A stretch of 64,000 nucleotides of DNA from Sphyrna mokarran. Taxonomy: Eukaryota. The notes beneath the pieces were generated by a model that did no database searches, had not been told where the DNA came from, and saw only the letters and a program-made list of their open reading frames with translations. Shown one piece after another: positions 949-54,409 of the stretch (position 1 is the stretch's first letter; each line of letters begins with the position of its first letter). The DNA lies in contig JAGIQG010000038.1 of NCBI GenBank assembly GCA_024679065.1, positions 4,960,001-5,024,000 on the forward strand. Reading direction: 5' to 3'. The translations under genes and the position numbers were made by a program.

Positions 949-1280
949 AAAAATGGCAAACCCAGTGACCAATTTTGTAATGTTGGTACAAATATGTTTT
1001 CCATTCCAAATTGAGCACAAGAATTTGTAATAGAAAGTTGGCACTCACAATGTGACAACATGAAGTGTACAGAAATGTAAGAGTTTGAATATGTTACATG
1101 CAGCAATTAGAATTTTGCCTTCATGTAAAATCCAACAAATGTGTTTTTGGCGGTAATGTGGGGGTAGAATGAAAATTAAAAGCTGTTGCATATCACAGTG
1201 CTACTTTTTGTTGTAACTTTTGATGGTTTTGAATTGGACTGAATATAAAATTCTGGAATTGGGTTATAATTCTATTAAAG

Positions 1281-1424
1281 TTGCCATGGAACCAGGAGAA
1301 TGTGACATAAAATTTGATGCAGCTATCAGCCAGGAACGAGAAGTGTGCCCAGCAAATGATCCTGTAAAAACAAGCGAAGAAACTGAGGAAGGGAAAAAGA
1401 GGAAGAGGAAGCCATACAGACCTG
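1281..1424 (+). CDS. kmt2d: KMT2D coding exon (approx. human exon 20): AMEPGECDIKFD...EETEEGKKRKRKPYRP(G)
   Basis: Acceptor tctattaaag|, donor cctg|gtaaga, phase 1-1; KKRKRKPYRPG motif shared by KMT2C/KMT2D. Confidence 0.9.
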
Positions 1425-8516: not shown

Positions 8517-8636
8517 GAATTGGTGGATTTATGGTACGGCAAAGGCAGTCGCGGACAAAAAATATAAATAAAGCTTCTATAGCACAACCTGGAATGCCCA
8601 CTGAATGTCCAAACACTGAGAGCAACAAAGAAGAAG
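8517..8636 (+). CDS. kmt2d: KMT2D coding exon (approx. exon 21): (G)IGGFMVRQRQSRTKN...SNKEE
   Basis: tttcag| ... gaag|gtgagt; 120 nt, phase 1-1; completes RKPYRPGIGGFMVRQR with the previous exon. Confidence 0.95.
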
Positions 8637-10775: not shown

Positions 10776-10909
10776 GTACTCAAATAGAGCTTCCAGCTGA
10801 GGGTGCCAGTGAAATACCTGTGATAGGAGCAGATGTAGGTGAGAAGGCAAAGAAACGGCAACGTCGAAAGAAAAGCAAGTTGGAGGATTCCTTTCCAGCA
10901 TACCTGCAG
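10776..10909 (+). CDS. kmt2d: KMT2D coding exon (approx. exon 22): ...EKAKKRQRRKKSKLEDSFPAYLQ
   Basis: ttgtag| ... ctgcag|gtactg; 134 nt, phase 1-0; KKSKLEDxFPAYLQ conserved motif. Confidence 0.93.
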
Positions 10910-20137: not shown

Positions 20138-20309
20138 GAAGCGTTCTTTGGAAAATCACTGCTGGACAGCAGTCGGAAAGTTTGCCTCAGCTCAGAGGGT
20201 TTCTCTGATAATGAAAGCACTGAGTTTCCACAAGCCACGCCTCAAGCGGACTCGGCACCTCAGCAGAAAGATGTAACTGATGAAAAACGTGATGGAGCCC
20301 AGGAAAGGG
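20138..20309 (+). CDS. kmt2d: KMT2D coding exon (approx. exon 23): EAFFGKSLLDSSRK...AQER
   Basis: ctgacag| ... aggg|gtgaga; 172 nt, phase 0-1; continues YLQ-EAFFGK-LLD motif. Confidence 0.93.
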
Positions 20310-21104: not shown

Positions 21105-23170
21105 GGACGAAGGAGCATTTGACCCTTTGAGCCTATTCCACTATTTAGTGAGTTCATGGCTGAACTGTTTGTGGTCTCAATTCCACTTTGCTGTCTGACT
21201 CCTTGACTTTCTTGTCCATCAAAAACTATCTAACTGAGCCTTGAATAAATTAATGACACAGCATCTGATTTCTATAGAAGAGAATTCGACATTCTTAAAG
21301 ACCAACTGGGAGAAGAAAATTGTCCTCATCTCTGTCTGATACGAACTGTGCCCCCTGCTACTTGTGTCTCCCATTAGAGGAAATATCCTCCCAGTAGCTA
21401 CGCTATTAAATCTTCTCGTATTCTTTTGTTTCAGTAAGATCACCTCTCATTCTTCTAAATTCTCATTCTTCTAAATTCTCATTCTTCTAAATTCTCATTC
21501 TTCTAAATTCTCATTCTTCTAAATTCTCATTCTTCTAAATTCTCATTCTTCTAAATTCTCATTCTTCTAATTTCTCATTCTTCTAAATTCTCATTCTTCT
21601 AATTTCTCATTCTTCTAAATTCTCATTCTTCTAAATTCTCATTCTTCTAAATTCTCATTCTTCTAAATTCTCATTCTTCTAAATTCTCATTCTTCTAAAT
21701 TCTCATTCTTCTAAATTCTCATTCTTCTAAATTCTCATTCTTCTAAATTCTCATTCTTCTAAATTCTCATTCTTCTAAATTCTCATTCTTCTAATTTCTC
21801 ATTCTTCTAAATTCTCATTCTTCTAAATTCTCATTCTTCTAAATTCTCATTCTTCTAAATTCTCATTCTTCTAAATTCTCATTCTTCTAAATTCTCATTC
21901 TTCTAAATTCTCATTCTTCTAAATTCTCATTCTTCTAAATTCTCATTCTTCTAAATTCATTCTTCTAATCTCATTCTTCTAAATCTCATTCTTCTAAATT
22001 CTCATTTCTAAATCTCATTCTTCTAAATTCTCATTCTTCTAATTCTCATTCTTCTAAATTCTCATTCTTCTAAATTCTCATTCTTCTAATTCTCATTCTT
22101 CTAAATTCTCATTCTTCTAAATTCTCATTCTTCTAAATTTCATTCTTCTAAATTCTCATTCTCTAAATCTCTTCTTCTAAATTCTCATTCTTCTAAATTC
22201 TCATTCTTCTAAATTCTCATTCTTCTAATTTCATTCTTCTAAATTCCATTTCTAAATTCTCATTCTTCTAAATTCTCATTCTTCTAAATTCTCATTCTTC
22301 TAATTTCTCATTCTTCTAAATTCTCATTCTTCTAAATTCTCATTCTTCTAAATTTCATTCTTCTAAATTCTCATTCTTCTAAATTCTCATTCTTCTAAAT
22401 TCTCATTCTTCTAAATTCTCATTCTTCTAAATTCTCATTCTTCTAAATTCTCATTCTTCTAAATTCTCATTCTTCTAATTTCTCATTCTTCTAAATTCTC
22501 ATTCTTCTAATTTCTCATTCTTCTAAATTCTCATTCTTCTAAATTCTCATTCTTCTAAATTCTCATTCTTCTAAATTCTCATTCTTCTAAATTCTCATTC
22601 TTCTAAATTCTCATTCTTCTAAATTCTCATTCTTCTAAATTCTCATTCTTCTAAATTCCAATAAGGCATTTAAAACTAAACTCTAACCTGTTCAACTTTT
22701 CTTCATAAGTCCTTTATCCCAGAAATGAATGGAATAAAGCTTTGCTGAACCGTTTCCAGCAGAATTATATCCTTGTTCAAATAAGGAGACCAAAGCCATG
22801 CACAGTACTCCAGATGTGGTCTCATTAAGGCCCTATATGGCTGCAGTAAAATTTCCCAACTTTGAAACTTCATTCCCCTTGCAAATAAATGCCAATATTC
22901 CATTTGTTTTCCTAATTGCTTGCTATATTGTGAACCAACTGTTTGTGATTCATGGACCAGGGCACCCCCTGCACAACCAGTTTCTCAATCGCTGTCCGTT
23001 TCCATTCCTGTCAAAATGGATAAGTTTACATTTTCCCACATTGCATTCCAACTGCCAGATTTTTGCCCACTCACTTGACCTGTTTATATCCTTTTGCAGG
23101 CTCTTTGCCTTTTGTTGACAACTTACTTTCCTGCCTATCTTGGTATCATCATCAAATTTAGCTACCATAT
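21105..23170 (-). mobile_element. CR1 LINE 3' part, antisense, split by the 16-mer array
   Basis: Minus-strand peptides MVAKFDDDTKIG, ALMRPHLEYCAWLWSPYL; 3' UTR-like sequence at about 21110-21440. Confidence 0.85.
21445..22658. repeat. Tandem array of 16-bp unit TCTCATTCTTCTAAAT, roughly 75 copies
   Basis: Direct periodicity; no G on the + strand; scattered 1-2 nt deletions at about 21950-22360. Confidence 0.98.
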
Positions 23171-23427: not shown

Positions 23428-23526
23428 CTCCTGATACAAAAACAATCCAAGGCCTCACAGAACACAATGGAGATTCAATTCCAGATGAACCACCTAAAAC
23501 TGAAGAAACTCAACCAGATGGAATGG
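23428..23526 (+). CDS. kmt2d: KMT2D coding exon (approx. exon 24): APDTKTIQGLTEHNGDSIPDEPPKTEETQPDGM
   Basis: ttttgacag| ... atgg|gtaagt; 99 nt, phase 1-1, open in the expected frame; poorly conserved peptide. Confidence 0.78.
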
Positions 23527-24039
23527 GTAAGTAAGAAGGAGCAGAATGTGAGATTACCATTTTATTTAGATATCTCCAAATACAAATGCGCTGTTGCAAC
23601 TGCACCCCCCCCCCCCCAAAACTTGGTTTCTGTAGCATTCTGAATTAAATCCAAAAACTGGTTGCAATCAAATTTGGATTTGTAGAACAGATAAGTGCAC
23701 TATGCAAAGGCTATTGATTTTGATTCCAAATTAAATTTGTTATCCCCCAATAAACAATTTTGGTTACAAAGTGCAATGTGTTATTGCACTATTGCAGTGT
23801 TCTGTAGAACAGTGAGGCAAGACATCCAGCCAGAATAATGGAGTGCTTGCTGATATGGGAAGAAAAGTTGTAGTACAACTGCTATAAAGTATGTTTCTGC
23901 AGGTTTTAGTCCTTATATTTTTCATGGTTATGAATTGAATGACTTTGACAGGTTTTGAACAAGGCAGCCATCTTGTGTTTAGGTATAGCATGTAATACAG
24001 AAAAATCTAAAAAGAGAAGCTCTTTTTAAATGTAACTAA

Positions 24040-24800
24040 AATTCATGCCATATAAGTGCCAGGCAGTGACCATCCCAAACAAAGAATCTAATCATTGCCA
24101 CTTGACATTCCTTGGTATTGCCATTGCTGAATACCCCAACATCAACATCCTGGGAGTTAAATTGACCAGAAACTGGATGGTCACTGTGACTATAAGAGCT
24201 GGTCAGAGGCTGGAAATCCTGCAGAGTATAACTCACCTCCTGACTTCCCAAAGCCTGTTCACTGTCTACAAGGCACAAGTCATGGGTATGATAGAATATA
24301 CTCCACTTGCTTGGGTGAGTACAACTCCAATAGCACTCAAGAAGCTTGACACCAGCCAGGACACAACCCACTTGATTGGCACCCCATCTACTAACATTCA
24401 CGCCTTTCACCATCTGTGAACAGTGGCACTAATGTGTACCACCTACAAAATGCACTGCAGCAACTCACCAAGACTCCTTAGCCAGCACTTTCCAAATGCA
24501 ACTGCTACCATTTAGAAGGACATGGGTAGCACATGCATGGAAATAGCATCACCTGGAAGTTCCCTTCCAAGCTATTTATCATCCTTACTCGGAAATAAAT
24601 TGCTGTTCTTTCACTGTTGCTGAGTCAAAATCCCTGGAGCTCCCTCCCTAATAGCACTGTGGGATGTACTTTCAGCACAGGGACAGCACCACTTTAAGAA
24701 GGCAGCTCACCACCATCACCACCTTCCTGTGGGCGATTTATGGATGGGCAGTAAATTCTGTCCAAGCCAGCGATACCCACATCCCATGAATGAATTAAAA
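24040..24800 (+). mobile_element. LINE 3' end (CR1-group family with ...cccacatcccatgaatgaat tail); more decayed copy at about 20670-21090
   Basis: ORF 24045..24419 INILGVKL..., RAGQRLEILQ, VYKAQVMGMIEYTPLAW; tail ggcagctcaccaccatcaccaccttcc...atcccatgaatgaat. Confidence 0.75.
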
Positions 24801-25335
24801 AAATTAAAAGCAGTATGTCTAGTACCCATTTCCTGTTGGTCACTCCACAAATCTCAAACTACAGAGAACAAGTGTCCTTTCTCAAAAAGTACAGCGAACC
24901 AAAAATAGTTTTTAACATGTAGAGATTTCTCCAGCAATTGAAAATAACTTAATTGACAGAGGCCTGACTGACCTTGCCAATCATGTAACCTGCAGCCTAA
25001 AGAGCAATTAAACGTTTAAGTTAGCCAGTACTTGCTTAATATTCAGATTTTGTAGCCTTGAAGGAATGCAGCTTCAAATAATGTGTTGTGAATTGTGGCA
25101 CGATGCTGTTTTTACTAAGCATTGTAAAATTCAGCTGAATAAGCAATGGAAATGTAAGTAATGCCATGAGCTGCGCTATTTAATTTAGTTATTCTCTTGC
25201 AATACCCATATGCACATTTGGAAGTCAAGAAACGTTGGCTTTGCCAACCTGTGCCTAAACTTTCTGAACTTGGGTAAGTGGGATGTATCTGTGCAGGAAA
25301 TGTATCCCATTCACATTGCACAAACAGAAGCTGTG

Positions 25336-25416
25336 CTCCCCCTTTCCCCCCCTCCCTCCCCCTTTCCCCCCCCCTCCCCCCCTTTCCCCCCCTCCCTCCC
25401 CCTTTCCCCCCCCCCC
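25336..25416. repeat. Pure C/T tract, about 4 copies of a ~20-bp unit CCTTTCCCCCCCTCCCTCCC
   Basis: Directly visible; many G-runs on the minus strand. Confidence 0.9.
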
Positions 25417-28400
25417 AAGTGCATATAGTTTCAGCAGCATGATTTGAGTAAGGTTTCTGTGGGTCTTAGACACCTGCTGACCAAACAACAAGTTTCTGTA
25501 GTCTCAATCCTGTTTCTATTGGGCCTGGTTCACAAGAATCCAATCGTGAAAGACCTGATGTAGAAGAATCCCTGACTTTGAGCTGTGGCGAAGAGAAGTA
25601 TGTGGACTACCCCAAATCACATTTGCATAAAGCACAGCAGATGCACACATGGAAAATTAAAAGCTCCCAAGTATGCATCTGGTCAACCAGATGGACCTTG
25701 GAACATATTAATGACTGCCTGAATCACACATGAAGGAGGCATCACAGCAAATCCACTCTTCTACTGATGCAATTGTCTGGCTTAACCCATCTGAATGTAA
25801 AATTATAGTTGTTACTATACATGTGCATCAACCATAAGAAGCTACCCTGAATTTAACACTTACTGTCCGTGTCAGACAGACTGATGGATGGTTGGTTGGT
25901 TGGTATGGGGAGGCGTGCCCAAATGGTGCATCTTGTAAAGTTCAGGCTGAGGCACAATATGGGAGTAGTGTGAAGGGAGCTTTGTTCTGCCTCTGCCTGT
26001 GCTATACTTTTCATATGAGTGCATGATGCTGACACTGGGTATGTGAAATAGAAATTGCTGTGTTCTGCATCACTGCCATTGCTTGCGTTGAACACAAAAT
26101 TGTCAATGTAAGTGCTTTCCTATTGAATCTATATTTTCCACTTTTTCCATCTGACTTGTTTCTTATGTTGTGATTGCATTCAATTTTACTTGCCTCTCAT
26201 TGGGTCTTTGCTTTTGGTTTTCATGTTAAATCGTGTTTTTCTGTACTTCACTCTGAAACCTCTCAAATCAGTTTTCTCAATTGCCACCACTAGATTGTTG
26301 TTCCTCTCTCCTGCCTTCAACTGCAGTGGCAGCTGTGCTTAGAGTGAGGGACATAGAGGTGAGGGAACGAGAGAAATAGGTATATAAATAAGGGAGAGAG
26401 TGAGAATGGGTGATACTACAGGTTGGAGAAGGGATTGAGAGTGGGTGAGGGACTGAGGAAGGCAAAAGAGAGAAGGGAAGTTGAGGACCATGACGTGCTT
26501 GTAAGGAACTCCAACATCCATGTTAAAAGAATCTTCCACTGAAAAACTGTCCCGAACTTGCTGCTTCAAGCACCACCCATCAAAGATTGCCTTCTTTAAG
26601 CATGCACAAACATACTCGTCCACTGTCCGGCCCTCTTTATGGAGACTATCTTTCTCCAGTGCACTCTTGCACTTTTTCCCCGTCCAGTGTTTACTCTGCT
26701 CGCACTCATCTTTGCTCAGGCATGTTTGTTCAGATACACATCAAATTTAGGACAATTTTCCATCCGCATACACTTGACAATTTAAGAAATATAAATGTTG
26801 CATCTGCAAATGAGAGATTCCAATTACCCATGATCTATTTTTATAAGAATTTTTTTATATATATATAGTTAAAAAAAACTTGCAATGTGCATTCATTTTT
26901 AACTCAGTTTATTTTACTTTATTACATTCTCCATCACATCATGTAAAAATAGGCACGCAGTTGTAGATTTGCAGATTCTAAAAGTACTATTAACAGTACT
27001 TTATATTAAAAACACAATTTGACATATGCACTGTCAATGTAAATCATTAATTCTCATACTATGTTGTGCATTACTTGAAATAGGAAAACATAAATCTCAA
27101 TGTGAGCAAAATAACAGATCTATGTGCGCATGCCAACAAATTTTGTGGAGGTAAGTACTCATGATGCACAATTGTATGACTGACAACTTTCCCAAGAAGT
27201 AAATGCCAGATTTGCAGATTATTAGCTGAGGACTAGTTCACATTGAAGAACCAGGGGGAGATGAGGATTTTTTTAATGCAGCCAATTTCAAGGCTCTCCT
27301 TGAAAGGATAGTGGAAGCAGATTCAGTAGTAGCTTCCAAAAGGGAATTGAATATATACTTGAAAAAATTGCAAGCCTAAGTGGCTAGTAATTACATAGAG
27401 CCAGCTCCAGTGTGATGGGCCAGATGACCATCACTTCTGTTGTATCATTTTATAAAAATGCAGCCTAACAACTGAACAGGGTTGAAACGTAACATGCCAT
27501 AATCAGCAAACTGCAAACAACTTTTCTTAAAAGAAGGGACTGGTGGAAATTACTGTAAATCTTAGATTGCTGGCTTTTTCAATCATTGATAGAGGGTAGC
27601 AAATGTCATGTACAGTAAATATAAAAATGAGTAATTTCCAAAACACATTTATACAGAAAATTGCCCAACTCTATTTGAAATACAGTATATTGCTGCGTGA
27701 GGCTTAAAGTCCATTTGTGACATGAGCTTTGAGTGTGGTTTTCAGTCCACTGTCTGATCCTGGTGCTTTTGAGAGCAACGTACTTTTTTTGGGGAGGGTA
27801 GGCTGGAGAAAAAAGCCTCTCCCTGCTATTCTGTTTGTTTTGTGTTGATTTCGGACTCGCTTGTCTCCTGCTGATTGCTACCATGTACACCCTTCTTCAT
27901 GTATGTTTGCTGCGCACACCCCCTCCCCACTCCCCACTTGTAGTGCACTCTGATCTGTCTGTCCTTTAATATAATTTTCAATCATGATCTTGTTGCCTTG
28001 CACAAATTCCTGAAATGTGTTGACTTTCTGGTGCATATACCAATGTTGTCAGAACAAGCGATTGATCAGATGAGCAGCAAAATAGAATAGGGAATGTAAG
28101 GACGTTTAAAGAAATAAAGGCAGAGAAATTAAGGAAATTCCAGCTAAATAAAAATGAGGGGATTCATTCAGCTCATTTTAGTTTGTCTGCTGAAATGAAC
28201 ATTTGCATCATGTTAGCCAAACACTTATTTATCTTTATCTCTAATAACCCTATTTGGAAGAGTTGATCTTTTCATGAAAAAGTGCTTTGTGACGCAAGTC
28301 ATTCATTTTCTTTTCAGCAGTTTTAACTTATGCTCTTATGTTTAAGTAATGCTCTCCAGTAGCATTACCTATGATATTTAATATCTTGTATGCTTCTATC

Positions 28401-30012
28401 ATGTCTCTCTCAGCCACCATCTTAAGTTTTTCATTGGTTCATCCAATCTTCCTTAAAGATTGGGTTACAATCAAGAAAGTAGCAATAAATGGTGAAGATA
28501 AGGAGGAATTAGTGAGATGGAAATACTATAACATCCAGTTCCTGTTAATGAGATACAAAACCTTTGTTTTTAAAATGAAACAGAAAGCCAATCATTTCAT
28601 GCTGAGGTTTTTCTTCCCTGGAACCAGTAATTTGGCAGCAACATAACTACTCCATAATTGACCTCCAAGAATTTACAAGCTACTGCATTTCCCTACATAT
28701 TTGTCTGTTTTGCCCAATTTCCCACAGAGTACTCGAGGGTACTGACCGTAAAATGACCAGTCATGTTAGTAACCGCTCTATCTTAGCAGCTAATCACTGA
28801 ACTCTAGACTACTCAAAGCAGTGCCACAGGAGATCATTTAGTAATTTATTTCCAAAGCACTGAATTGCTATGCCTCATGCATTCCCCCGCTAATTCACAT
28901 TTTCTGAAAAATGCTGAATCAATGTAGAAATATACTTTCAAACACAGAAATTGCATTCATAGGTGGGTCGGGGGGCATTATTTAGTTCTTTTGAAATGAC
29001 TTAATTTGGCATGGAACTTGTATGCCATTAAAGATCCCTACAGTTCTCTAACTGGCTGTTACTGTTGGAAAACCTATATAAATTAAATTGGTAGTTGCGG
29101 GCCTGTTAATTTTCCTTGTAGAGGCATGCCCATAATTGGATTATTGAGAGAGCAAATTAATGGACCATGTCTTCTCCCTTACTTTCTAATAACATTCAAC
29201 GTGTTTGAAAAGGTGCAAACGTTCTTGGAAGGACATGACCAAGTTCTTGTTCCCTCCACAATGGAACGTTAACAGTTGGCTTAGATGAAAACAAACAATC
29301 CAGTTGTATTTAAGATTGAGTGAGTTAGCCCATGTTACACCTGGGCAGTGGGTTGGAACAGTACGTTACTTTCTTAGATTATGTATTAATTACATTGATT
29401 TTCTGCAGCCTTCTATTCCTGCTTTAAACTTCAGTTATTTAGAAACTGCATTGTAGTCAGTACTTACTTCACTTTGTGGTATTCCTATTTCATTTCCAAT
29501 TGCATCTCGTTTACTTTTTTTAATTCTTTCCCTGGATGAGCCTTTGCAGAATTGGACTTCAACTGAGATCGATCTACCTTGCTGTTAATTTGACTGTAAA
29601 GGCAAAACCTCTTTCACATACTTTGTTCATTCAGCACATTGGGCAACCATTCAGGGTCTTTATGAGTGCATTCTTAGCTGATGATCTCACTGTAAAAGCC
29701 AGGCTAGAATCCATTTGCACAGTCCATTAACAGGTGTATCTGTGGTTTCAGTCTACTTGTAATCAGTTACACTGACCATCAAGCTAATTCCAGAATCCAA
29801 GCTTTCTGGATAACAGTTGAGGGCCCTGAAATGCTGCAGGTCACTTTGACTTTGGTATGGATCTTGATTGCTTTGTGCTGTGCACAGTGATTGGGCTGTG
29901 TTATTAGGGTAGGGATGGTTGTGGACTTTTAGGTTGGAAAGGGTTAAATGGCTTTTGCTTGCCACTGTTCATTTTTTTCCCTTTTGTTTTTATTGTACTT
30001 TTGGGTTTTTAG

Positions 30013-30060
30013 GTTTCGATCTCAGTCCTTTCCACGCAGACAGCTCCCTCTCTCCCTTTG
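30013..30060 (+). CDS. kmt2d: Candidate 48-nt alternative microexon of KMT2D: GFDLSPFHADSSLSPF
   Basis: Long U-rich tract then ttttag|, donor tttg|gtaagc; 48 nt, phase 1-1, no stop in the gene frame; flanks appear repeat-poor. Confidence 0.68.
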
Positions 30061-33000
30061 GTAAGCAGTCAGACCCTCTCGCCACTCTTTGCGTGTTCAC
30101 GTGTTAACATCAGTAGTTTGTACCTGGGTGCTTGTATGTCTGCTTGCGTTTTCATAGAAGATATTCACATGACATCACCAGTCTATTCAGCAGGTTACTG
30201 GTCAAGTGCTAAGTTTTTTTTTAGCATTTGTGAACATAAAAACCAATGAAGATTTTTTTTACTTTCTTGCCTTTTTAATTTTCTGAAATGTATCTGTAAA
30301 ATGCATGTGAAAATCAGTTTGCATTCACAAAATATCTCAAAGTAACAATTGTGACCATAGATTATCCTGCGTCATATTTTATACTTAATCAAATATTTGT
30401 ATTGTTATGAAGGTGTAGTAGCTAGAATAAAAATATGTTACGGCATGGGCGTTTTCCCAGTGACTATTGGTAGTCTAAGCATGTACAAGTCATGTCACTG
30501 ATTCTTGAACCAAATTCCATCCATGGTGACAAGTGGCAAAATTTGCAAAAGATAAATTTTGTTTGCTCCTCAATATATATTTGTAACCGATTTAGCAACT
30601 TGTTCAAAAGATTTACAGTCTGCTATGTAAAAAGTATTATGTTGGTTCCTGATGTCCACGTTGATAAATGCACCACCGTGTGGTGTGATCCTGAGTCTTA
30701 CAGAATAATGGGCCATAAATTTAATGTCTGGCCCGTGCTTACTAAGCTGACCTCAGGTGGATTGCAGTTGATTCCACGTTATTCTCGCTGTTGATCACCA
30801 GTAGCTCTCAACCCCAGTGGAAAGTTGTACTTGCAGATTTTGAGTGAGGTCGGCATTGGGCTTGGTTGTAATCAGCTCTAATGTTGAATTGTCTACAGAA
30901 CTTTAGTATGAACAATGGCTGTTTGGAATGAATTACTGGAGGGTTGTCAACATCCAAATACTGTAAACCAGCAAATGTGAAGTGCCGTCAACGGAGGAGG
31001 GTGAAAATTGGGTTATAAGAGGTTTTTATAGATCATGTAAGAATGATCAGTATCACTGGTATGGAACAAAGTATATTAATAGGTTTGGGGAGTTGTATCC
31101 CAGCCAAGCCAGGCACGAGGAACTGAATTGGCAACTGTTAATTGAAATTCCCAATAATTAGCAAGTGATTTATTTCTTTCGTTGCGTGCCAATGAGATGG
31201 CATCATGGTTGCAAAAATTAAGATGAAATTGTGTTAATTGTGATTAGTGCAGAGCTTCAGTATAATTTGTGTTGACTGTTGCCCTGTGCATGGTTTCTAT
31301 GCAGTATTGTGGCACGGTGCATATCTTTTGAATTTTTATCATAGGTTCAGTGCAAGTGGGTTTTTTGTTGGATTTCTTTTTCATATTTTCCATCAAAGTA
31401 ACGTGCAAAATCTTTACCAGTTCACGTAAAGATTTCCCAGCATGTGTGAAAATAGCATGCTGAACTGGGGTACTAGTTAGAGTGTGATAAACTGTTGAAA
31501 CTGGCAGATTGTTTGAAGCAGAACTAAAGCATCAAGAAAGAAGTGTGTGCACAAAGAATTAGACTCAATGATCTATTAATTTTCAACCTGTTTTTTAGTA
31601 GGTAAAGGCTCATTTTTAAAAAAAGGTTTGAGGAAAAAGTGAGGTAATCTTTGTTTCGCAATCTAGCAGACTTAAGTTTACCAGGACTTGGGTCTGCTAA
31701 GTTCTGTTGGAGATAGCTTTGTAAAGTGCTTCGCAGAATGTAACTCCAGCCAACCAATGTGGAAATGGCTAGAGACAATTCTGCATTTCTAGCTCAAGAA
31801 GAATGTGTGGCACTCTGAAGGGTTAAATAGGGAAGAAAACATTTGTGATGGATGGGAGGGGGGAAATCCTATTCCAGAGTTGAGCTGTTTATTTTTTGTT
31901 TTTGTTGCTTGGCTTCTTAATATGTGGCTTTAAAAAATTGATTGCTTTCACTCATGCACCTTTCACTGTGTGGACAGGTTATTTCCAGTTGTGGACTTAG
32001 CCAGAGCCACTTATGTAGCACTTCCTCTTTCTCACCACAAGATAAATTTATTGATAAATTATACATTGAGACTAATAATGCTGCTTTTCTGTGTTGTAAC
32101 CAAAAGGCAAGTCTATCTTAAAATTGGCCCCAATTTGTTACTTCCTCAGAAAGTTGGTGAGAATTGTGCTAAACGAAGTTAGCACAATTCCATTCCTGTT
32201 TCAAAAAGTAATGGCTAGTCCTGTATTTAAACTTTTGCGTACAAAACACAACCTTTAAATAATATTACAAGTTCCAGAGGCTAGTAGAACAGCATTGACA
32301 CTTTGCAGGTGTACTCTGCAGAGATTTTAAATTAATTCTGAATATTGACATGCCAGTATTGTAAAACCCACCTTCCTGACAGGCCCTGATCATGGTGAAT
32401 ATGCAGTCACTAGTCTGGTTTAAGTACTGGCAGTTTATTGCCCACTGGTACTCTCCTCTTATGGACTGTACTCTCAAGTGCATTCCCCTTTTTAGTTCAC
32501 TGGCTTATACAAAGTAATCGTTGTGAGGGGTGGAACTTGGTCTTTAAAAGCTAATATTATCACCAAGTAGTCCCTAAATTTAATTCTTACTGAGGGGAGT
32601 ATTGAAAATGTTTAGCTTTGATTCATCACCAGATAGAAAATGGGCAGATCTTTATTTAAACAAAATTCCTTCTTGTAACCTAAATTGCAAATAATGTAAC
32701 TACTAGTAGCCAAAACTCACTAAAATTAAGAAAATAATTATAAATTGAAATCTTGGCTAATTTTAACTTTTTGAGCTGAAGGGGGCCTGGTGTTCTCCAG
32801 TACTTAATCTAAGTGACCTTCATTAATTTTTGAACGTGATCGTGTCAACATTAGCACCAAATTCCATTGGCGTGGAATGTCTTCAGCCTCTGATGTCAAT
32901 TATAACATCTCAATTACGAGGCCATGAATGATTCGTGGGATCTCTGGTGTGCATAGCTGTTACACATTGCCTTTACCAACTGAGCCATTGGGAGAGCTTT

Positions 33001-33578
33001 AGCTCACTCCTTAGAATGACCTTCATGATTATAAACAACTATTATTTGTGAATTGTGTCTCCTTATGGGCTGTAAAAGACAATCAAAAGCAACTGAACCC
33101 ATCAAATATCCATGGTGTGTCTAACCAGAAGCAGTGTTTGTTGCAACATGATGTGGGCATAGTCTGTGTTTTTTCAACCATAAACAAAGGATGTCTCACT
33201 ATTGTGTTGTGTTCCATCTTGCAGTTGAGTAGGAACAAAACTCAGATCTGTGATTGAATTTAATTGATAAGTGGGTTGAATACTGAAATCCATCATTGCT
33301 TGGTTGTGTACGTTAACATTACTTGGTTGGTTTTCAGTGTTCCCACTACCAGTTGTGTTTGACTTTTTAGGTTCGTATTTGTCATTTGATAATTTCCTGC
33401 AAATAGGTAATTTTTAAAAAATTTTTCCTTTGAGAAAGAAAATCATGTAGACTTAGTTTGAACAGGCAACCTGAAAATTGCTTCCCTTGTTCCCTTCTGT
33501 TTTGTGTGATTGAAATCAACTTGTCACAACTGCTGAAAATTTCATTCGGTAACTTATCACAATGCTCCTTTCTTTAAG

Positions 33579-33716
33579 CTGGGATTGACATCTCATCTGT
33601 TACGGATGAGCTTTCAGCTAATCATCCTAATGAGAGCTCAAAGCGAAATCAGCCTTTCGGTGATGTTCCAGTGGAGGGTGCTCTCAGCTCAGATCTTGAC
33701 AAGATTGTAACAGAAG
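33579..33716 (+). CDS. kmt2d: KMT2D coding exon (approx. exon 25): AGIDISSVTDE...ALSSDLDKIVTE
   Basis: tctttaag| ... gaag|gtaggt; 138 nt, phase 1-1; SDLD.I.TE-like motif. Confidence 0.88.
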
Positions 33717-36650: not shown

Positions 36651-36839
36651 AACTAGCACACATGGAGAGTAAAGATGTACAACAACTCTTCACTGACGTT
36701 CTAGGAACACAGGGAAATCCTCCACTTTCAGAGTCAGCATTGGGTGGCATCAGACCTGCCTCAGAAAGCCACCTTCTCACTTCCCATGGGTTGGGAGAAC
36801 TTATCAGACCTTCAATATGCCAGCGATCTCTCCTTCCTG
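36651..36839 (+). CDS. kmt2d: KMT2D coding exon (approx. exon 26): ELAHMESKDVQQLFTDVLG...RSLLP
   Basis: ttcattcag| ... cctg|gtaaaa; 189 nt, phase 1-1; MESKD.QQLF.DVLG is KMT2D-type. Confidence 0.92.
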
Positions 36840-39438: not shown

Positions 39439-39541
39439 GAGGGACGATGGCAGTTGCAATTGGTGGTCCTCTGGTACAGCCTTCTGGCGCAGCAAGCGAG
39501 TCATTTCCCAATGTTTGCCAGTCACCATTTCTGGAAAACAG
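39439..39541 (+). CDS. kmt2d: KMT2D coding exon (approx. exon 27): GGTMAVAIGG...SFPNVCQSPFLEN(R)
   Basis: ttctgtag| ... aacag|gtaaac; 103 nt, phase 1-2; CQSPFL motif. Confidence 0.9.
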
Positions 39542-41484: not shown

Positions 41485-41735
41485 GGAAAGGAGTATACCT
41501 TTCAGTCCAGACAGTGGAGAGCAACAGAGTCCATGGACAACCCCAGCCACCCCAGCTACCCCTACCACTCCAACTACCCCTACCACTCCGACAGAGGGAG
41601 AAGGAGATGGGCTGTCCTACAACCAGCGAAGCATACTGAGATGGGAAAAAGATGAGGCTTTGGGAGAATTATCAACCATATCACCTGTTCTGTACGCAAA
41701 TATCAACTTCCCGAACCTAAAACATGATTACCCAG
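41485..41735 (+). CDS. kmt2d: KMT2D coding exon (approx. exon 28): TP repeats, EGEGDGLSYNQRSILRWEKDEALGELSTISPVLYANINFPNLKHDYP (start of HMG-box region)
   Basis: ttttcag| ... ccag|gtatga; 251 nt, phase 2-1; GDGLSYNQRS and STISPVLYANINFPNLK distinguish KMT2D from KMT2C (MSNAQRS/ATVAPVLYT). Confidence 0.97.
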
Positions 41736-41938: not shown

Positions 41939-42012
41939 ACTGGGCAAGTCGTTGTAAACAGATCACTAAGATTTGGAGGAAAGTCCCAGCAACTGATAAA
42001 GCACCATTTCTG
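41939..42012 (+). CDS. kmt2d: KMT2D coding exon (approx. exon 29), HMG box: DWASRCKQITKIWRKVPATDKAPFL
   Basis: ttctccag| ... ctg|gtaagt; 74 nt, phase 1-0. Confidence 0.97.
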
Positions 42013-42867: not shown

Positions 42868-42918
42868 CAAAAGGCCAAAGACAACAGGGCAGCTCAGCGC
42901 ATCAACAAGGCACAGAAG
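42868..42918 (+). CDS. kmt2d: KMT2D coding exon (approx. exon 30), HMG box end: QKAKDNRAAQRINKAQK
   Basis: ttttcag| ... aag|gtaaat; 51 nt, phase 0-0. Confidence 0.96.
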
Positions 42919-43522: not shown

Positions 43523-45463
43523 CAAGTTGATATGCAAGGTAACAGGCAGCCAAAAATTGAGAGACAAGATGCAAAACAGGATCGTAAGCCGCCCCGTCAC
43601 CTGCAAGCCCTGGCTCAGAATACTGCAGTGACCAGTCTCACTCCAGCAACATTAGTTGGGGGGAATTCTTGTTCCCCAACAGAATTGAGGATTGAAGGTT
43701 TAGGGCAGAATGCTTCATTACATGGTAACAAATCATATACTACCTCGACTAATGAATTTGTCAAACTGCAGTCAGCAAGCCCAACATCTACAGACTCCAG
43801 CAGTGTCTTGTTCCCAAAACTGCACATGCAGTCTCCAACTGGAATTGTAGCCCAGGATCCTTTTGGGCATACACTTACACCGTACCCTCAGGAACCCAAC
43901 ATTCAGTCTTCCAGTAATCCAACTCAAGCACCAGCATGGAACAGCTCCCATCACCAGTCAGGTGTACCTCGTCCTGTTGTTCCAGGCCGACTGCAACTTA
44001 GCTCTTCAGAACTGCATTCTGCCACACCAGGGATGTCGCATCATCAGCATCCTCTAACTCCAGACACTTTCCTCCGATCTAGAGTGCTTGGTGAGTCACA
44101 TGATAACCACACAGTTGATCAGTCTTTAGGAAGTCCAGGGTTTCGATCATCACAGTCAACAGACTGTTACGCAAAACCACCTGAAACTTTAACGTTGCCA
44201 TCATCAACTGGGGAACAATTAAGACGACTCTCAGATCCAGAAGTTGGAGCACAGCATCCCAGAAATGAACAGTATACAGGAGTTATGAGGCAAGATTTGA
44301 GTGCAAATTCCTTGGCTTCCCTTTACAGAGCTGCAATGTTGGATCCAAGTATGAATGTACGGTCACTCTCTGATGGGAGGGACAGAGATATCTTCAAAGC
44401 ACCTTTAACTCCTAGATCATCATATGTGGACCAAACACCCATAGTACCTGCTCAGCGTTCTCAGGAACTGCATCCTCAATCTCAGGGTGTCTCACCACAG
44501 ACTCAGACTGATTTGTACCGGCAATCTCCTTCAACACAATTTTCTGATCCATATCATCAACCTCCCTTGGCACCACGGCCATCTTCTAGTGACAGCTGCT
44601 CTCCACTACCTCCTAAATCCCTCCCTTCTGACTCCCTCTCCAGGGTACCCATGAGTCCACAGTCTCAGTGCAGTTCACCATTGACACCCAGGCCACATTC
44701 CAATGAGACTTTTTCTCAGTCTCCCATTGCTTCCAGATTCCAGTCACCAGATCCTTATTCGCGGCCACCTTCAAGAGATCCTTACGCTCAGCTTCACAAA
44801 CCACAGCGACCCCAGATGGTTGACGGCAGTTTCAAGTCCTCACCAGTACCTCACGGGCAACCAACTGGTACCATTCAGCATTCAGCAATGTTTTCTCAGC
44901 ACAGTGATCCACATTCAAAAACAGCTTATGTAATGCAGCCGCAATCTCCAAGGCCTCACTCTTTTGACCCATGCGCCAAGACATTTGCCGGTGGTCAGCC
45001 ACAAAGTCCATTTCCATTCACTTCATCACCAGGTGACATTGTTAAAGAAACCCATTCTCAGCAGTCAGTGTCCCAGATGCCGCGAGCAAATAATTTTCCA
45101 CAAAGTCACTTGATGAGCAGTCAACTCAATGCAAGTGATGCTCATTGTTCTCAACTCAATGCCAATAATCAGTCAGGACCTCCAGATACGGCATCTATTG
45201 CAAGAGATGAAACTTTCACCAACATGCCTTTACGGCCATCCTTGATCAAGCAGGATGCACTACCTTTACAGCAAGATTGCTCATATCAGACTTCCGCTAG
45301 CAGCCGCTCAGTGAGTGATTCATCACCGACAGAAAGAAGCAGCGAGAGTGCTGCACAGGTCCATCCTCCGGCATCTCCCAGCAGAGACTTGCACGAACTT
45401 CCATTTAACAGGGGAGCACAAGCTGGAAATCTCAGTCAGACGGAGCTGGAGAAACAGCGACAG
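43523..45463 (+). CDS. kmt2d: KMT2D large Pro/Ser/Gln-rich exon (approx. exon 31), 647 codons, ending LSQTELEKQRQ
   Basis: ttcacag| ... cag|gttagt; 1941 nt, phase 0-0; coincides with ORF 43532..45496; DIFKAPLTPR, SRFQSPDPYSRPPSR and ELEKQRQ motifs. Confidence 0.96.
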
Positions 45464-46150: not shown

Positions 46151-47667
46151 TGTTAAGGTATGGATCAAAACCCCGAAGTATGTTATGAAGCCTGCCTAGA
46201 CCCCAGCAGTTATTCTATTTTGGCATTTGAGGATAAGGGTGTCACTCCAGGTGTGATTTTATTCTCACACTAAGAACTTTTATCAAAACAAACTTTACTT
46301 AACAATTCAAGTTTAACTATAACAAATGGATTAACTTTTACCACTTGAAATACTTTGCTAACCTATCTCTGCTTGAATTGGAACAAACAATGTTCCTCTT
46401 ATAGACTTAAATTGCTCTTCAAAATCAGTTAGCAACACATGGCTTATGTGCTTGTACTTGCTCGGCCAGTTCTTGAGCCTCTAGAGAGAAAGACATAGAC
46501 CTGTTTCCCCTAGCAGGTCTCTTATAGCAGTCTCCAGAGAGAGAGAAAGAGAGACAAACAGAAACACCTTTTGCTTCTTGTGGAAAAGTGTGAGGTAATG
46601 CACTATGGCAGGAATAATAAATGTGTAGAGTATAGGGCTAATGGTAGGATTCTTAGTAGTCTTGATGAACAGAGGGATCTTGGTGTATATGTGCATAGAT
46701 CCCTGAAAGTAGGCAGTCAAGTCGGGAAGGTTGTTAAGAAGGCATACGGAGTCTTAGCTTTTATTGGTAGGGGGATTGAATTTCGGAGCCGCAACGTCAT
46801 GTTGCAACTGTACAAAACTCTAGTGCGGCCGCACTTGGAGTATTGTGTGAAGTTCTGGTCCCCACATTATAAGAAAGATGTGGAGGCATTGGAGAGGGTA
46901 CAGAGGAGGTTTACCAGGATGTTGCCTGGTATGGAGGGCAGGTCTTATGAAGAGCGGCTGAGGGATTTGAGGCTGTTTTCATTAGAAAGGAGGCGGCTAA
47001 GAGGGGACCTAATCGAAACATATAAGATGATTAGAGGTTTAGATAGGGTGGACAGTGATAGCCTTTTTCATAGGATGGAGAAAGCTAGCACGAGGGGACA
47101 CAGCTTTAAATTAAGGGGTGATAGTTATAGGACGGATATCAGAGGTAGGTTCTTTACCCAAAGGGTGGTTCGGGAGTGGAATGCCCTGCCTGCAGCAGTT
47201 GTGGATGCCCCAAGTTTGGTGGCGTTTAAGAGGTTAGTTGATAAGTATATGGAAGAGAAGGGAATGGTTTAGTTTGGAGGGGCATTGCTTTTTATATTGG
47301 TCGGCGCAACATCGAAGGCCGAAGGGCCTGTTCTGTGCTGTAATGTTCTATGTTCTTTCAGAACCTGGCAGTAACTGGCTGCCTTTCCCTGTTAGCTTAG
47401 TTCCTATCGTTAAGCACGTGATTGTCTTTGTCAGTCAACCTAATCAAAACCTTACTCTGAAACTCCAGAGGAAAACCCAAATAAACAAAAATGCATGAAC
47501 TCAGATTAATACAAACGTATCCCTAGCTAAAATCAGTCAGTAGCCTGCATTCTCAACTTGAGCTGCCTAGTTTGCAGACAAATTGTCGTTGTGTAAAACA
47601 GCTAAATTTTAAACGAGCCCTTTAAATGTTTTACAAATACATTTCTTAAAGGCATTGTGTCATCACA
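46151..47667. mobile_element. Probable solo LTR (about 730 bp after removing the nested CR1)
   Basis: TG...CA termini (tgttaagg...catcaca) interrupt host ccccctcactat|actgtcccct; imperfect ~4-bp TSD (ctat / cat). Confidence 0.6.
46579..47356 (+). mobile_element. Young 5'-truncated CR1 with intact ORF2 C-terminus and tail
   Basis: ORF 46571..47272 (KCEVMHYGR...[17 protein letters not shown]...) uninterrupted, CpGs retained, tail ggccgaagggcctgttctgtgctgtaatgttctatgttct. Confidence 0.93.
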
Positions 47668-49017: not shown

Positions 49018-49197
49018 CGGCAAAGATTGCGTCAACTTTTAATACGTCAGCAAATACAGCGGAATAACTTGCGACAAGAGAAGGAACAGGCAGCTGCGTG
49101 TGGGGGTGGCACTACAACAAGTAGTTGGTCACAAGAAAGTTCAAGCCAGTCCCATGATCTACAGACAAGGGCACCACCTCCATACCCCATCTCCCAG
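49018..49197 (+). CDS. kmt2d: KMT2D coding exon (approx. exon 32): RQRLRQLLIRQQIQRNNLRQEKE...PPPYPISQ
   Basis: ttttcag| ... cccag|gtatct; 180 nt, phase 0-0; LRxLL motif. Confidence 0.95.
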
Positions 49198-49997: not shown

Positions 49998-50155
49998 GAC
50001 CGGTCTGGCCTGAGAGGGTTAATCCCAGGCTCTGGAAATGGAAGATTAATAAATCCAGTGGTAATAGATAAACAACGATTGTTTCCTCAGGATGAGAGTC
50101 TCTGTCGGCCTCCACAGCCAGGCAATACCCCCACTGGTGAAGTAAACATTCCTAG
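49998..50155 (+). CDS. kmt2d: KMT2D coding exon (approx. exon 33): DRSGLRGLIPG...FPQDESLCRPPQPGNTPTGEVNIP(R)
   Basis: attacag| ... cctag|gtaagt; 158 nt, phase 0-2, matches phases of both neighbours. Confidence 0.9.
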
Positions 50156-52037: not shown

Positions 52038-54409
52038 ACAATCAGGAGTTGGTAGCCCACAAGGATTTCACCCAAGAAGCTTGCCAACTGCTCAGCAGCA
52101 ACAATGGCAGCAGCAGTTGGTGCAGAGACTTCCTGGACAGACTCGTTTTCAGCAACCTGAAGTTTTGCATGTTAGCAGGCCTGCAATGACCATGCAGGTG
52201 AACAGCACAGCTGGACTTAATCCTAGAATTGCCACTCAGATCACTTTTCAGAATGCACAGCAACAAATTGTGGCTTCACCAATTCCTGTGAGTCCTCAGT
52301 ATATAGAATTGAGACACAATTCCCAGCGCTTGCCCATTGCTGCCCAGTTGGCACAGCGAAATCCCCAATCAAGACCACGCCTTCCAATACCAAATCAAGA
52401 AATCAGCCCGTTTGTCCACCAAATGCAGGGATGCAAGGTGATGTCAAGAGGTCCAGGTACATCTTTGCCGCAGTCACCAGTTGGGATTACACTCTTGCCC
52501 CAGCAGAATATTTCCACTCCATTGCCATCTTCACCTCATTCAGTGGAAGTATCAAGTGCCCATCAGCATATTCAAACAAAAGAACCATTAAATTCCACTG
52601 TACAAGTTGAATCACAAGAGACATTTCAGACAACTTCGTCGACAACATCATCCACTTCTAGTTGCTGTTCAGATAGTTTGAAGGACAGCTCAGTATCCTT
52701 TCCACTTAACTCTGTCCCATCAATCTCCAGTGTAGTTACGGAGCATGCAGAGTTGGATCCTCGCAAGATTCCTTGTCATGACTCGGTAGAAAAAGCCTTA
52801 GATGAGGAACTTGATTCACCTAAAGAGCTAGATGAAGAAGATGACCTGGCCAATCTGAGTCTTGACCCAGACAGTAAGACAGATGATGAGCTTGGTAACC
52901 TTGATAACCTGGAAACCAATGACCCCCATCTGGATGATCTTCTGAAGTGTGAAGAATTTGATCTGTTGGCTTATACTGATCCTGAGCTAGACACCGGAGA
53001 TAAAAAAGACATTTTTACAGAGCAGCTGCGTTTAGTGGAATCTGCAAATGAAAAAGCAGAAGAGGGTCAGTGTATATTGACTGATCAGGGTGCTGTCGAC
53101 CCAGCAATTAAATGTACAAATGATAAAGTCAACAAATCTGATTTGGAAAAAACAGAAAAGGGAGAGGAGCGTGAAAAAGCAATGGCTAAATCAGATGTCA
53201 TTGCTGATGCTCTGTCCACTTCTGGTAGGGTTGTGTGTGAGACAGTGAATAACGTCAATTCAGAGACTAATACTGGCAGTCAGTGCAGTGATCCCATCAG
53301 CAGAGCCCCATCTACTGACAATTCTCCTAAACCTACTCTTGATTTAGTACTGAAGGTTGAAGAGAACATTTCCCAAAATTCAGCTTGCCAGTTTGTAGCA
53401 AATACGTCCAATGCACAGACAGTTTTGATAAAATCAGAAAGTCCACCAAAGGGGGATGATGAAAGGGGAGCAGTGTCGATGCTCCTCAGTATTGGAACTG
53501 GGCTCACTGTTAACACAAGTGTAGCACTGTGTCAGTCATCTACATGTGCTACCAGTGGAACACAAACTACTACTCAAAGTAGTACAATTGCCTCAAGTGG
53601 CCATCGAACTGTACGCATTCCCAGCAATGGGCATTCTAACCTAGATTTAGAAAGTATTCCCTGCGCATCTTCAGCTCAGATAGTGTCCAAGATGCCTCTG
53701 GCTGTCCAGTCTAGGCCGCCATTGGGTAAACTAGGACTAGATGAGATGTGCCATCATGTAGCCGGTATGGAGCCTAAACGTCGATCTGTGGATGACCTTG
53801 TCAAAGTAGAAAGTTCTTTGGAAGCAAGTGAGCTTCCACTACTTCTGCACGATTTACTTGAGCAAGAGAAAATGGAACTGCAGCAACAACAGCAATTGGG
53901 AGGATCACAGTGTGTACCTGCACAGCAACAGCATTCAGGACCAAAGGCCCTTCCAGTTCTGCAACAGCAGCAACAACTTGAGGTTTCACATCAGCAGAGT
54001 CATCCAGGACTTTCCCAACATCTTCCAACAACACAGCAATCTCAGCACCTTGAGGGGTCACCACAGAGTCTAAACCTGCCACAGCAACATATCTTGGGAG
54101 TGATACAGCATCATCACTTGGGAATCCCACGATCTCTTCCATCTTCGCCACAGCAACAGTTGACAGCATCGCAACAACGGCTTGGAGCCTCACCACATGT
54201 AGTCATGTCCCAACAGCAGCAGCATGTGGCAACAGGGCAACATCCACCGCAGCAGATAGTGGCTTCACAGCAGAGTCAACATATGACCTCACCGCAATTG
54301 CTGTCAACTCAGCAGTTAGCTGTATCGCAATTGGGCATCATGCAGCAGACACAGCAAGTTGTGATGCAACAGCAGCAACAATTAGCCAATGCTTTCTTCC
54401 CAGATACAG
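52038..54409 (+). CDS. kmt2d: KMT2D large exon (approx. exon 34) with acidic LxxLL segment and Gln-rich region, ending LANAFFPDT
   Basis: catctag| ... acag|gtatag; 2372 nt, phase 2-1; within ORF 51961..54441; NLETNDPHLDDLL...FDLLAYTDPELDTGDKKDIF...LRLVESANEKAE and VESSLEASELPLLL are KMT2D hallmarks. Confidence 0.96.

What the first reader, a model, noticed from the sequence alone, without database searches (positions are those of the whole stretch)
29940..30310. Extra 48-nt in-frame microexon in shark KMT2D with a regulated-exon context
Seen: strong U-rich acceptor, G|GTAAGC donor, 48 nt, phase 1-1, encoding GFDLSPFHADSSLSPF. It has UGC/YGCY motifs upstream (tttgcttgcc, about 29955), YGCY (about 30129, 30141) and a YCAY cluster (30152-30180) downstream, and TGCATG at 30302; the flanks appear repeat-poor. 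Knowledge: these motifs are bound by SRRM4, MBNL, NOVA and RBFOX. The other 15 exons map one-to-one on my recollection of human KMT2D exons 20-34, leaving this one as an extra. Inference: I recall a similar optional peptide at the equivalent position of some vertebrate KMT2C isoforms. If so, this may be an ancestral tissue-regulated exon that predates the KMT2C/D duplication and is absent from canonical mammalian KMT2D.
Basis: partly seen in the sequence, partly recalled or inferred. Interest (0 to 1): 0.7.

Follow-up and report, generated by a model that had tools for sequence, protein, structure and literature searches.

The report
Ancient optional exon in KMT2C/KMT2D
This 48-base stretch in a shark gene for the chromatin enzyme KMT2D is the twin of an optional exon of its sister gene KMT2C, so it likely dates from before the two genes split and is likely still spliced in at times, while it is missing from the reptile, bird and bony-fish KMT2D proteins checked.

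Summary
Exon confirmed: window 30013-30060, AG/GTAAGC, phase 1-1; the KMT2D frame is open with and without it. This shark's own KMT2C carries a paralogous 48-nt exon at the same junction (31/48 nt, 8/16 aa; exon lengths 105/48/138 vs 99/48/138), better conserved than the flanking exons. The KMT2C peptide is in 117 of 117 jawed-vertebrate KMT2C hits of a peptide-bearing query and is optional within species; a lamprey model has a 16-aa counterpart. It is absent from 140 of 140 sauropsid/teleost KMT2D models; mammals, gar, coelacanth and other sharks' KMT2D proteins were not retrieved. A related shark's RNA contig shows the skip joint; no inclusion was seen in 3 RNA runs. The cited YGCY/YCAY motifs are at background; the UGCs are misplaced for SRRM4; only a downstream TGCATG in both paralogs hints at RBFOX. 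Verdict: a real, ancestral, likely alternatively spliced exon; tissue regulation and peptide function unshown. Not found in print or in earlier scan notes.

The parts
30013..30060 (+). 48-nt frame-preserving (phase 1-1) cassette exon of KMT2D, peptide GFDLSPFHADSSLSPF
   Evidence: paralog in own KMT2C at G000:C771:16811779-16811826 (-); profile score 40.0 vs best of 54,410 other 16-mers 20.2
29964..30012 (+). U-rich polypyrimidine tract and AG acceptor; AG-free zone of 71 nt; last bases resemble the KMT2C acceptor (TGGGT..TAG in both)
30061..30066 (+). donor GTAAGC (KMT2C paralog GTAAGA)
30302..30307 (+). TGCATG, candidate RBFOX site (+242); KMT2C paralog has one at +71 and one at -105
   Evidence: 10% of random 300-nt windows hold one, so a lead only
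29954..29963 (+). two UGC (-57, -53), 5' of the pyrimidine tract; not in the SRRM4 position, not matched in KMT2C
30129..30178 (+).
23428..23526 (+). upstream KMT2D exon, 99 nt (KMT2C counterpart 105 nt)
   Evidence: (RNA contigs of X1, X3)
33579..33716 (+). downstream KMT2D exon, 138 nt (KMT2C counterpart 138 nt)
   Evidence: (RNA contigs of X1, X2, X3)
1262..1424 (+). KMT2D exon (5' end approximate, from tblastn)
8517..8636 (+). KMT2D exon
10776..10909 (+). KMT2D exon
20138..20309 (+). KMT2D exon (QEAFFG motif)
36651..36839 (+). KMT2D exon
39439..39541 (+). KMT2D exon
41485..41735 (+). KMT2D exon, start of the conserved region around the HMG-like box (box name recalled; Pfam PF00505 is listed for lamprey P0115)
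41939..42012 (+). KMT2D exon
42868..42918 (+). KMT2D exon, 51 nt
43523..45463 (+). KMT2D large exon, 1941 nt
49018..49197 (+). KMT2D exon
49998..50155 (+). KMT2D exon
52038..54409 (+). KMT2D large exon, 2372 nt

Best explanation
Window 30013-30060 is a 48-nt in-frame exon of shark KMT2D that is paralogous to an optional 48-nt exon at the same junction of KMT2C, likely inherited from the single ancestral KMT2C/D gene, likely still included in part of the transcripts, and likely lost from KMT2D in bony vertebrates while kept in KMT2C. Shown: exon anatomy, open frame either way, the paralog, the skip form in a related shark, optional use of the KMT2C peptide in annotated models, a lamprey counterpart. 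Inferred: inclusion adds a 16-aa hydrophobic/Ser-Pro short linear motif (two invariant Phe) to a low-complexity linker about 210 aa before the conserved WEKDE/HMG-like region, and so would switch a protein contact or phosphorylation site on or off. The most likely control is RBFOX acting from the downstream TGCATG, which would give brain/heart/muscle inclusion (about 0.45 for this step alone).
For: Paralog in own genome with the same length, phase, position and similar splice sites; 31/48 nt and 8/16 aa, 10 of 17 differences at third codon positions, whereas the constitutive 138-nt neighbours share 65/138 nt and 12/45 aa ungapped and the upstream exons look unrelated. Against the set of 22 distinct KMT2C peptides the window peptide scores 40.0, the lamprey one 31.0, the next best of 54,411 stop-free 16-mers of the window 20.2 (mean -16.9, SD 7.7). 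The KMT2C peptide is 16/16 identical between white shark and wallaby, turtle, rhea, Xenopus, gar and a manta ray, 14/16 jaguar, 12/16 milkfish, above its flanks. Of 101 cluster members that hold the region 74 carry it, 26 skip it, 1 is an aberrant partial; both forms occur in white shark, basking shark, gar and others. Lamprey P0125 has it, P0119 (same species) lacks it. Skip joint 23526>33579 in an RNA contig of depth 39 (X3). TGCATG downstream in both paralogs is the one motif enriched downstream of alternative micro-exons <=51 nt (PMC4317164, passages). Flanks are 67% disorder-promoting residues, 2.5% aromatic.
Against: No RNA contig covers the exon in 3 of 3 RNA runs laid; contigs drop rare forms and tissues are unknown, but inclusion is unshown. 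No other chondrichthyan KMT2D protein was retrieved, so conservation of the KMT2D copy across sharks is untested at base level; the DNA contig of a related organism that spans it is 5.1% divergent, no better than the other intronic contigs. The 117 of 117 count is biased by a query that carried the peptide. Absence in KMT2D rests on protein models of sauropsids and teleosts only, many of them isoforms of one species. One TGCATG occurs in 10% of random windows and the KMT2D one lies 242 nt away. No partner or structure for the peptide was found (0 PDB matches).
Confidence: 0.78

Rival explanations
1. The exon is real and alternative but not tissue-specific: it is partly included in most tissues because it is short.
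For: Most cited motifs are at background; no 48-nt Mll3 exon among the 4 Mll3 events (120, 105, 213, 162 nt) of a 16,036-row mouse cassette-exon table; no paper describing it as neural or muscle-specific.
Against: 0 of 3 RNA runs show it while 1 shows the skip, which fits a restricted exon; TGCATG downstream in both paralogs. The mouse table may simply lack the exon in its annotation.
Confidence: 0.3
2. It is an SRRM3/4-dependent neural microexon, as the first reader suggested from the upstream UGC.
For: Long U-rich tract and 71-nt AG-free zone; two UGC lie 3' of a weak branch-point candidate at about -69; UGC is not strictly needed at high SRRM4 (10.1101/2024.09.17.613571, passages).
Against: 48 nt is above the 3-27 nt class (PMC8437376 passage); the UGCs sit at -57/-53, 5' of the pyrimidine tract and not between tract and AG; the KMT2C paralog has no UGC within 70 nt; UGC density is below the window average.
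Confidence: 0.12
3. It is a vestige: once used, now a silent pseudo-exon in shark KMT2D on its way to the loss seen in other lineages.
For: No inclusion seen in 3 RNA runs; no extra conservation of the surrounding 1.7 kb in a related organism; 8 of 16 residues differ from a peptide that is nearly invariant in KMT2C.
Against: Length, frame and both splice sites are intact and the exon is closer to its paralog than the constitutive neighbours are, with changes biased to third positions; unselected sequence would not keep this since the origin of jawed vertebrates (established knowledge).
Confidence: 0.07
4. The similarity to KMT2C arose by a later transfer (gene conversion) or by chance rather than by common ancestry.
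For: The exon is missing in all 140 other KMT2D models checked, so a single gain is formally as short a history as one or two losses.
Against: The genes lie on different contigs (C971, C771), the exons are only 65% alike, the junction and phase are the same, and a lamprey model has the exon; chance is excluded by the profile control.
Confidence: 0.03

Closest known systems
Optional 16-aa segment of vertebrate KMT2C (MLL3) in NCBI predicted isoforms, e.g. white shark XP_041040294.1 (with) and XP_041040299.1 (without)
   Same: Same junction, length 48 nt/16 aa, phase 1-1, 8/16 identical residues, same 138-nt downstream exon.
   Different: Here it is in KMT2D; the peptide has diverged from the near-invariant KMT2C form; the KMT2C exon is annotated in models but was not found described in a paper.
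Alternatively spliced micro-exons <=51 nt enhanced by downstream RBFOX sites (Li et al. 2015, PMC4317164; passages read)
   Same: Length, frame preservation, U-rich upstream intron, downstream TGCATG in both paralogs.
   Different: Tissue pattern, RBFOX binding and conservation of the site across species are untested; that paper's searchable supplements list only a 23-nt MLL3 exon (file 1 not searched).
SRRM3/4-dependent neural microexons (3-27 nt; 10.1101/2024.09.17.613571, passages read)
   Same: Frame-preserving, long pyrimidine tract, deep vertebrate conservation.
   Different: Too long; UGC not between tract and AG and not shared with the paralog.
Human KMT2D 48-nt exon HsaEX0039490 (chr12:49024053-49024100; PMC7935315 supplement row)
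   Same: A 48-nt low-inclusion (PSI 5-17) cassette exon in KMT2D.
   Different: Likely another exon: by my recall of the gene's coordinates it lies near the 3' end, far from this junction; not tested, no human sequence was on hand.
CtBP-binding PxDLS / degenerate GLDLSKK motif of HIC1 (title in the reference list of PMC1592084)
   Same: The peptides begin GLDLC (KMT2C) and GFDLS (shark KMT2D).
   Different: The Asp is replaced by Gly or His in shrew, musk deer, tarpon and mustelid KMT2C, while the invariant residues are the two Phe further on; a weak lead only.

Membership tests
KMT2D (MLL4) gene | Exons match KMT2D better than KMT2C, and a separate KMT2C exists in the genome | tested here: met
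Coding cassette exon | Canonical AG/GT sites, length a multiple of 3, frame open with and without it | tested here: met
Coding cassette exon | Skip junction in RNA | tested here: met
   joint 23526>33579 in one contig of run X3, another organism
Coding cassette exon | Inclusion junction in RNA | tested here: inconclusive
   0 of 3 RNA runs cover it; only 4 of 24 listed runs were laid, all contigs, tissues unknown
Paralog of the KMT2C optional exon | Same junction, length, phase and similarity above chance | tested here: met
Exon older than the KMT2C/KMT2D split | Present in both paralogs and in a jawless vertebrate | tested here: met
   whether the lamprey gene is a KMT2C ortholog or an outgroup was not resolved (no tree was built)
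Micro-exon (<=51 nt definition) | Length <=51 nt | tested here: met
   48 nt; definition in PMC4317164
SRRM3/4 neural microexon | Length 3-27 nt | tested here: not met
   48 nt; class limits in PMC8437376 passage
SRRM3/4 neural microexon | UGC near the AG, 3' of the pyrimidine tract | tested here: not met
   nearest UGC -53 (KMT2D), -71 (KMT2C); architecture
SRRM3/4 neural microexon | Inclusion depends on SRRM3/4 | not testable with these tools
   needs perturbation data
RBFOX-enhanced exon | TGCATG in the downstream intron | tested here: met
   +242 in KMT2D, +71 in KMT2C; 10% background
RBFOX-enhanced exon | Site conserved across species; brain/heart/muscle inclusion; response to RBFOX loss | not testable with these tools
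   base-level differences at the site were not shown; no tissue-labelled data
NOVA or MBNL target | YCAY or YGCY clusters above background | tested here: not met
   26% and 56% of random windows match
CtBP-binding motif | Conserved DLS core | tested here: not met
   Asp varies to Gly/His and Ser is Cys/Tyr in KMT2C; binding itself not tested

The most novel reading that the evidence does not exclude
The ancestral vertebrate MLL3/4 gene had a tissue-regulated 16-aa binding switch; both duplicates kept it in sharks, bony vertebrates lost it from KMT2D, and so a neuron- or muscle-enriched KMT2C isoform carries a near-invariant, unstudied motif that KMT2D cannot supply, a concrete cause of non-redundancy between the two disease genes.
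Probability: 0.22. Interest if true: 0.75.

Novelty: new member of a known kind. Interest (0 to 1): 0.5.

Why it matters
KMT2C and KMT2D are the enhancer H3K4 methyltransferases behind Kleefstra-type and Kabuki syndromes and many cancers (established knowledge); how they differ is an open question. The shark exon points to a 16-aa optional KMT2C segment that is more conserved than its constitutive neighbours from shark to marsupial, that several reference mammalian KMT2C entries omit (7 of 7 KMT2C hits), and that KMT2D of reptiles, birds and teleosts lacks. That gives a sharp, cheap test (tissue PSI, exon deletion, peptide pull-down) and a clean case of a splicing switch kept in both duplicates in one lineage and lost from one in another. 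As a kind of thing it is ordinary.

Tried and rejected
Searching the own genome with the 26-aa frame around the exon found only itself; the paralog came from fetching the KMT2C intron. Searches for shark KMT2D proteins failed: 3 hits, none shark; length limit 1665-5299 aa and best 120 of 234 listed; best 120 of 367 all KMT2C; 2 weak hits among cluster representatives. PDB search with a 49-aa KMT2C stretch: 0 matches at E<=10. First regexes under-counted the peptide (36, then 99 of 120); the final count uses a wider pattern, 117 of 117 jawed-vertebrate rows, 3 lamprey rows set apart; 4 mustelid rows were re-scored by eye as carrying it. Exon ends were first off by 1-2 nt and fixed. SRRM4, NOVA, MBNL and CtBP readings rejected as above. 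No tree was built: no outgroup was on hand to root it. No complex was predicted: no candidate partner with a reason. Runs with small word shares were not used as evidence. Supplements: PMC4317164 (file 1 not searched), PMC5989265 (files 13-15 not searched), PMC5630039 (0 hits, 16 of 27 files not searched), PMC7935315 (files 13-19 not searched), PMC10987577 and PMC10888101 (not readable): any of these may hold tissue data on the KMT2C exon. Two papers asked for by recalled id were not held. Scan notes: 0 by words; 8 shown of 11 by place, all on other genes.
Full report
1. Observation. The window shows a U-rich tract and AG ending at 30012, 48 nt, and G|GTAAGC at 30060; the frame reads GFDLSPFHADSSLSPF. 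In the 10,052-nt intron it is the only stretch that passes a strict exon filter. The gene is KMT2D: 15 other exons match KMT2D proteins, far better than KMT2C, and the genome holds a separate KMT2C on contig C771. Fourteen of them plus this exon give 2009 aa without a stop, 1993 aa without the exon (the first exon was left out). The flanks are single-copy in a DNA run of a related organism. The named motifs are present but mostly common: 3 YCAY in 30 nt in 26% and >=3 YGCY in 56% of 213 windows, TGCATG in 10%.

2. The paralog. In the intron between the matching KMT2C exons of the same genome, one of ten AG-48-GT open-frame candidates matches: C771:16811779-16811826, minus strand, GLDLCTFQVENSPSPF, donor GTAAGA. 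The exon series is 105/48/138 nt in KMT2C and 99/48/138 nt in KMT2D. The two 48-nt exons share 31 nt and 8 residues, 10 of the 17 differences fall on third codon positions, and the last bases of the acceptors are alike; the 138-nt neighbours share 65 nt and 12 of 45 residues ungapped. Scored against 22 distinct KMT2C peptides, the window peptide ranks first of 54,411 stop-free 16-mers of the window, 40.0 against 20.2 for the next. This is not chance, and conservation above that of the constitutive neighbours is best read as purifying selection (inference).

3. Distribution. A search with a lamprey query that carries the peptide returned 117 jawed-vertebrate KMT2C proteins among the best 120 of 367; all 117 have it (sharks, rays, gar, bowfin, teleosts, amphibians, reptiles, birds, mammals). 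This count is biased by the query. The 7 mammalian KMT2C proteins returned by a query without it all lack it. In eight KMT2C clusters, of 104 listed new members 101 hold the region: 74 with, 26 without, 1 aberrant; both forms occur within white shark, basking shark, horn shark, smooth-hound, skates, mobulid rays and gar. The peptide is 16/16 identical from white shark to wallaby, turtle, rhea, Xenopus and gar, above either flank. In brook lamprey, model P0125 has GSDLDSFHLVNSPSLF at this junction and P0119 does not; NCBI names that gene KMT2C, and its place in the tree was not resolved. None of 140 KMT2D models of lizards, snakes, turtles, crocodilians, birds and teleosts has the peptide (best score 19.4), though KMT2C models from the same groups do. 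These 140 include many isoforms of one species, and no full-length mammalian, amphibian, gar, coelacanth or chondrichthyan KMT2D was retrieved, so the time of loss, and whether public shark KMT2D models already annotate the exon, stay open.

4. RNA. Of 24 runs listed, 4 were laid, all as contigs. Run X3 (another organism, RNA by guess) joins 23526 to 33579 in a contig of depth 39: the skip form exists. X1, the closest match to the window, and X2 have contigs on the flanking exons but none that joins them within the stretch. None of the three covers the 48-nt exon. Contigs drop rare forms and the tissues are not given, so this shows neither absence nor regulation. DNA run X15 spans the exon with 88 differences in 1726 nt (5.1%), like other intronic contigs (pooled 4.7%); the letters at the exon itself were not listed.

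5. Mechanism. Shown: a symmetric exon whose use adds 16 aa to a linker rich in disorder-promoting residues (67%, 2.5% aromatic), about 210 aa before the conserved WEKDE region. Inferred: the peptide, with invariant Phe at 7 and 16 and Ser-Pro near its end, acts as a short linear motif or phosphorylation patch; no solved structure matches. A CtBP motif (GLDLSKK of HIC1, seen as a title in the reference list of PMC1592084) was weighed and is weak, since the Asp varies. For control, the UGCs lie at -57/-53, 5' of the pyrimidine tract, and KMT2C has none within 70 nt, unlike the SRRM3/4 layout (10.1101/2024.09.17.613571, passages). Both paralogs have a downstream TGCATG (+242, +71), and KMT2C also ACTAAY at +136 (read as a QKI site from recall). 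TGCATG is the one motif enriched downstream of alternative micro-exons and RBFOX there promotes inclusion (PMC4317164, passages). I put RBFOX-type brain/muscle inclusion at about 0.45, untargeted partial inclusion at 0.3, SRRM3/4 at 0.12.

6. What is known. The KMT2C exon is in predicted isoform models, so it is annotated; I found no paper on it or on its history: KMT2D+microexon 0 papers, KMT2C+KMT2D+lamprey+shark+exon 0; listings gave none by title or abstract start, and passages read in PMC8437376 and PMC6429586 do not describe it. Supplement rows show other events only: a 23-nt MLL3 exon, a 105-nt Qki-sensitive Mll3 cassette, PSI 0.81 to 0.66 (same length as the exon just upstream in shark KMT2C, identity not tested), four Mll3 cassettes none of 48 nt, and a human KMT2D 48-nt exon that is likely elsewhere in the gene. 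Several supplement files could not be searched, and subscription journals and splicing databases are not covered. Earlier scan notes hold nothing on it.

7. Verdict. Real exon, ancestral to the KMT2C/KMT2D split (about 0.9), likely still alternatively spliced in shark KMT2D (about 0.85), likely lost from bony-vertebrate KMT2D (about 0.75 on present sampling). A new member of a known kind; its value is as a pointer to an unstudied, near-invariant optional segment of KMT2C. Interest 0.5.

Noticed in passing
window 31324-33381: The DNA contig of a related organism over this part of the downstream intron differs at 2.2% of sites against 4.7% for the other seven intronic contigs (Fisher p 2e-7); the next exon (33579) also has a 113-nt AG-free zone. 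A conserved element may lie here; no convincing exon was found.
   Followed up: partly
L002 (G000:C771, KMT2C), 105-nt exon upstream of the 48-nt exon: Lamprey model P0115 lacks both this exon and the 48-nt exon, and a 105-nt mouse Mll3 cassette responds to Qki loss: the two exons may form a jointly regulated alternative block.
   Followed up: no
window 30012-30026 and 33579-33596: The small exon and the next exon begin with a similar Gly-hydrophobic-Asp-hydrophobic word in KMT2D, KMT2C and lamprey; the small exon may have arisen by duplication of the next exon's 5' end (speculation).
   Followed up: no
window 33579-33716: Teleost KMT2D proteins lack the conserved end of this exon's peptide (LSSDLDK-type motif) that sharks and sauropsids share: the whole linker was remodelled in teleosts.
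   Followed up: no
proteins P0177, P0238, P0292, P0304: The same junction shows further small variants: 6 extra residues in alligator KMT2D, 5 in frog KMT2C, a 3-aa shorter acceptor in mammals and a longer truncation in catshark KMT2C.
   Followed up: no
window 21445-22658: Tandem array of a 16-bp unit, 77 copies, 96% matches, in the intron before the upstream exon.
   Followed up: no
window 12281-13720: GC-rich minisatellite-like stretch with long open frames on both strands; intronic.
   Followed up: no
window 3915-4994 and 46514-47269: Open frames that read like LINE reverse-transcriptase fragments (by recall of the family); also a high-copy repeat at about 24000-25050.
   Followed up: no
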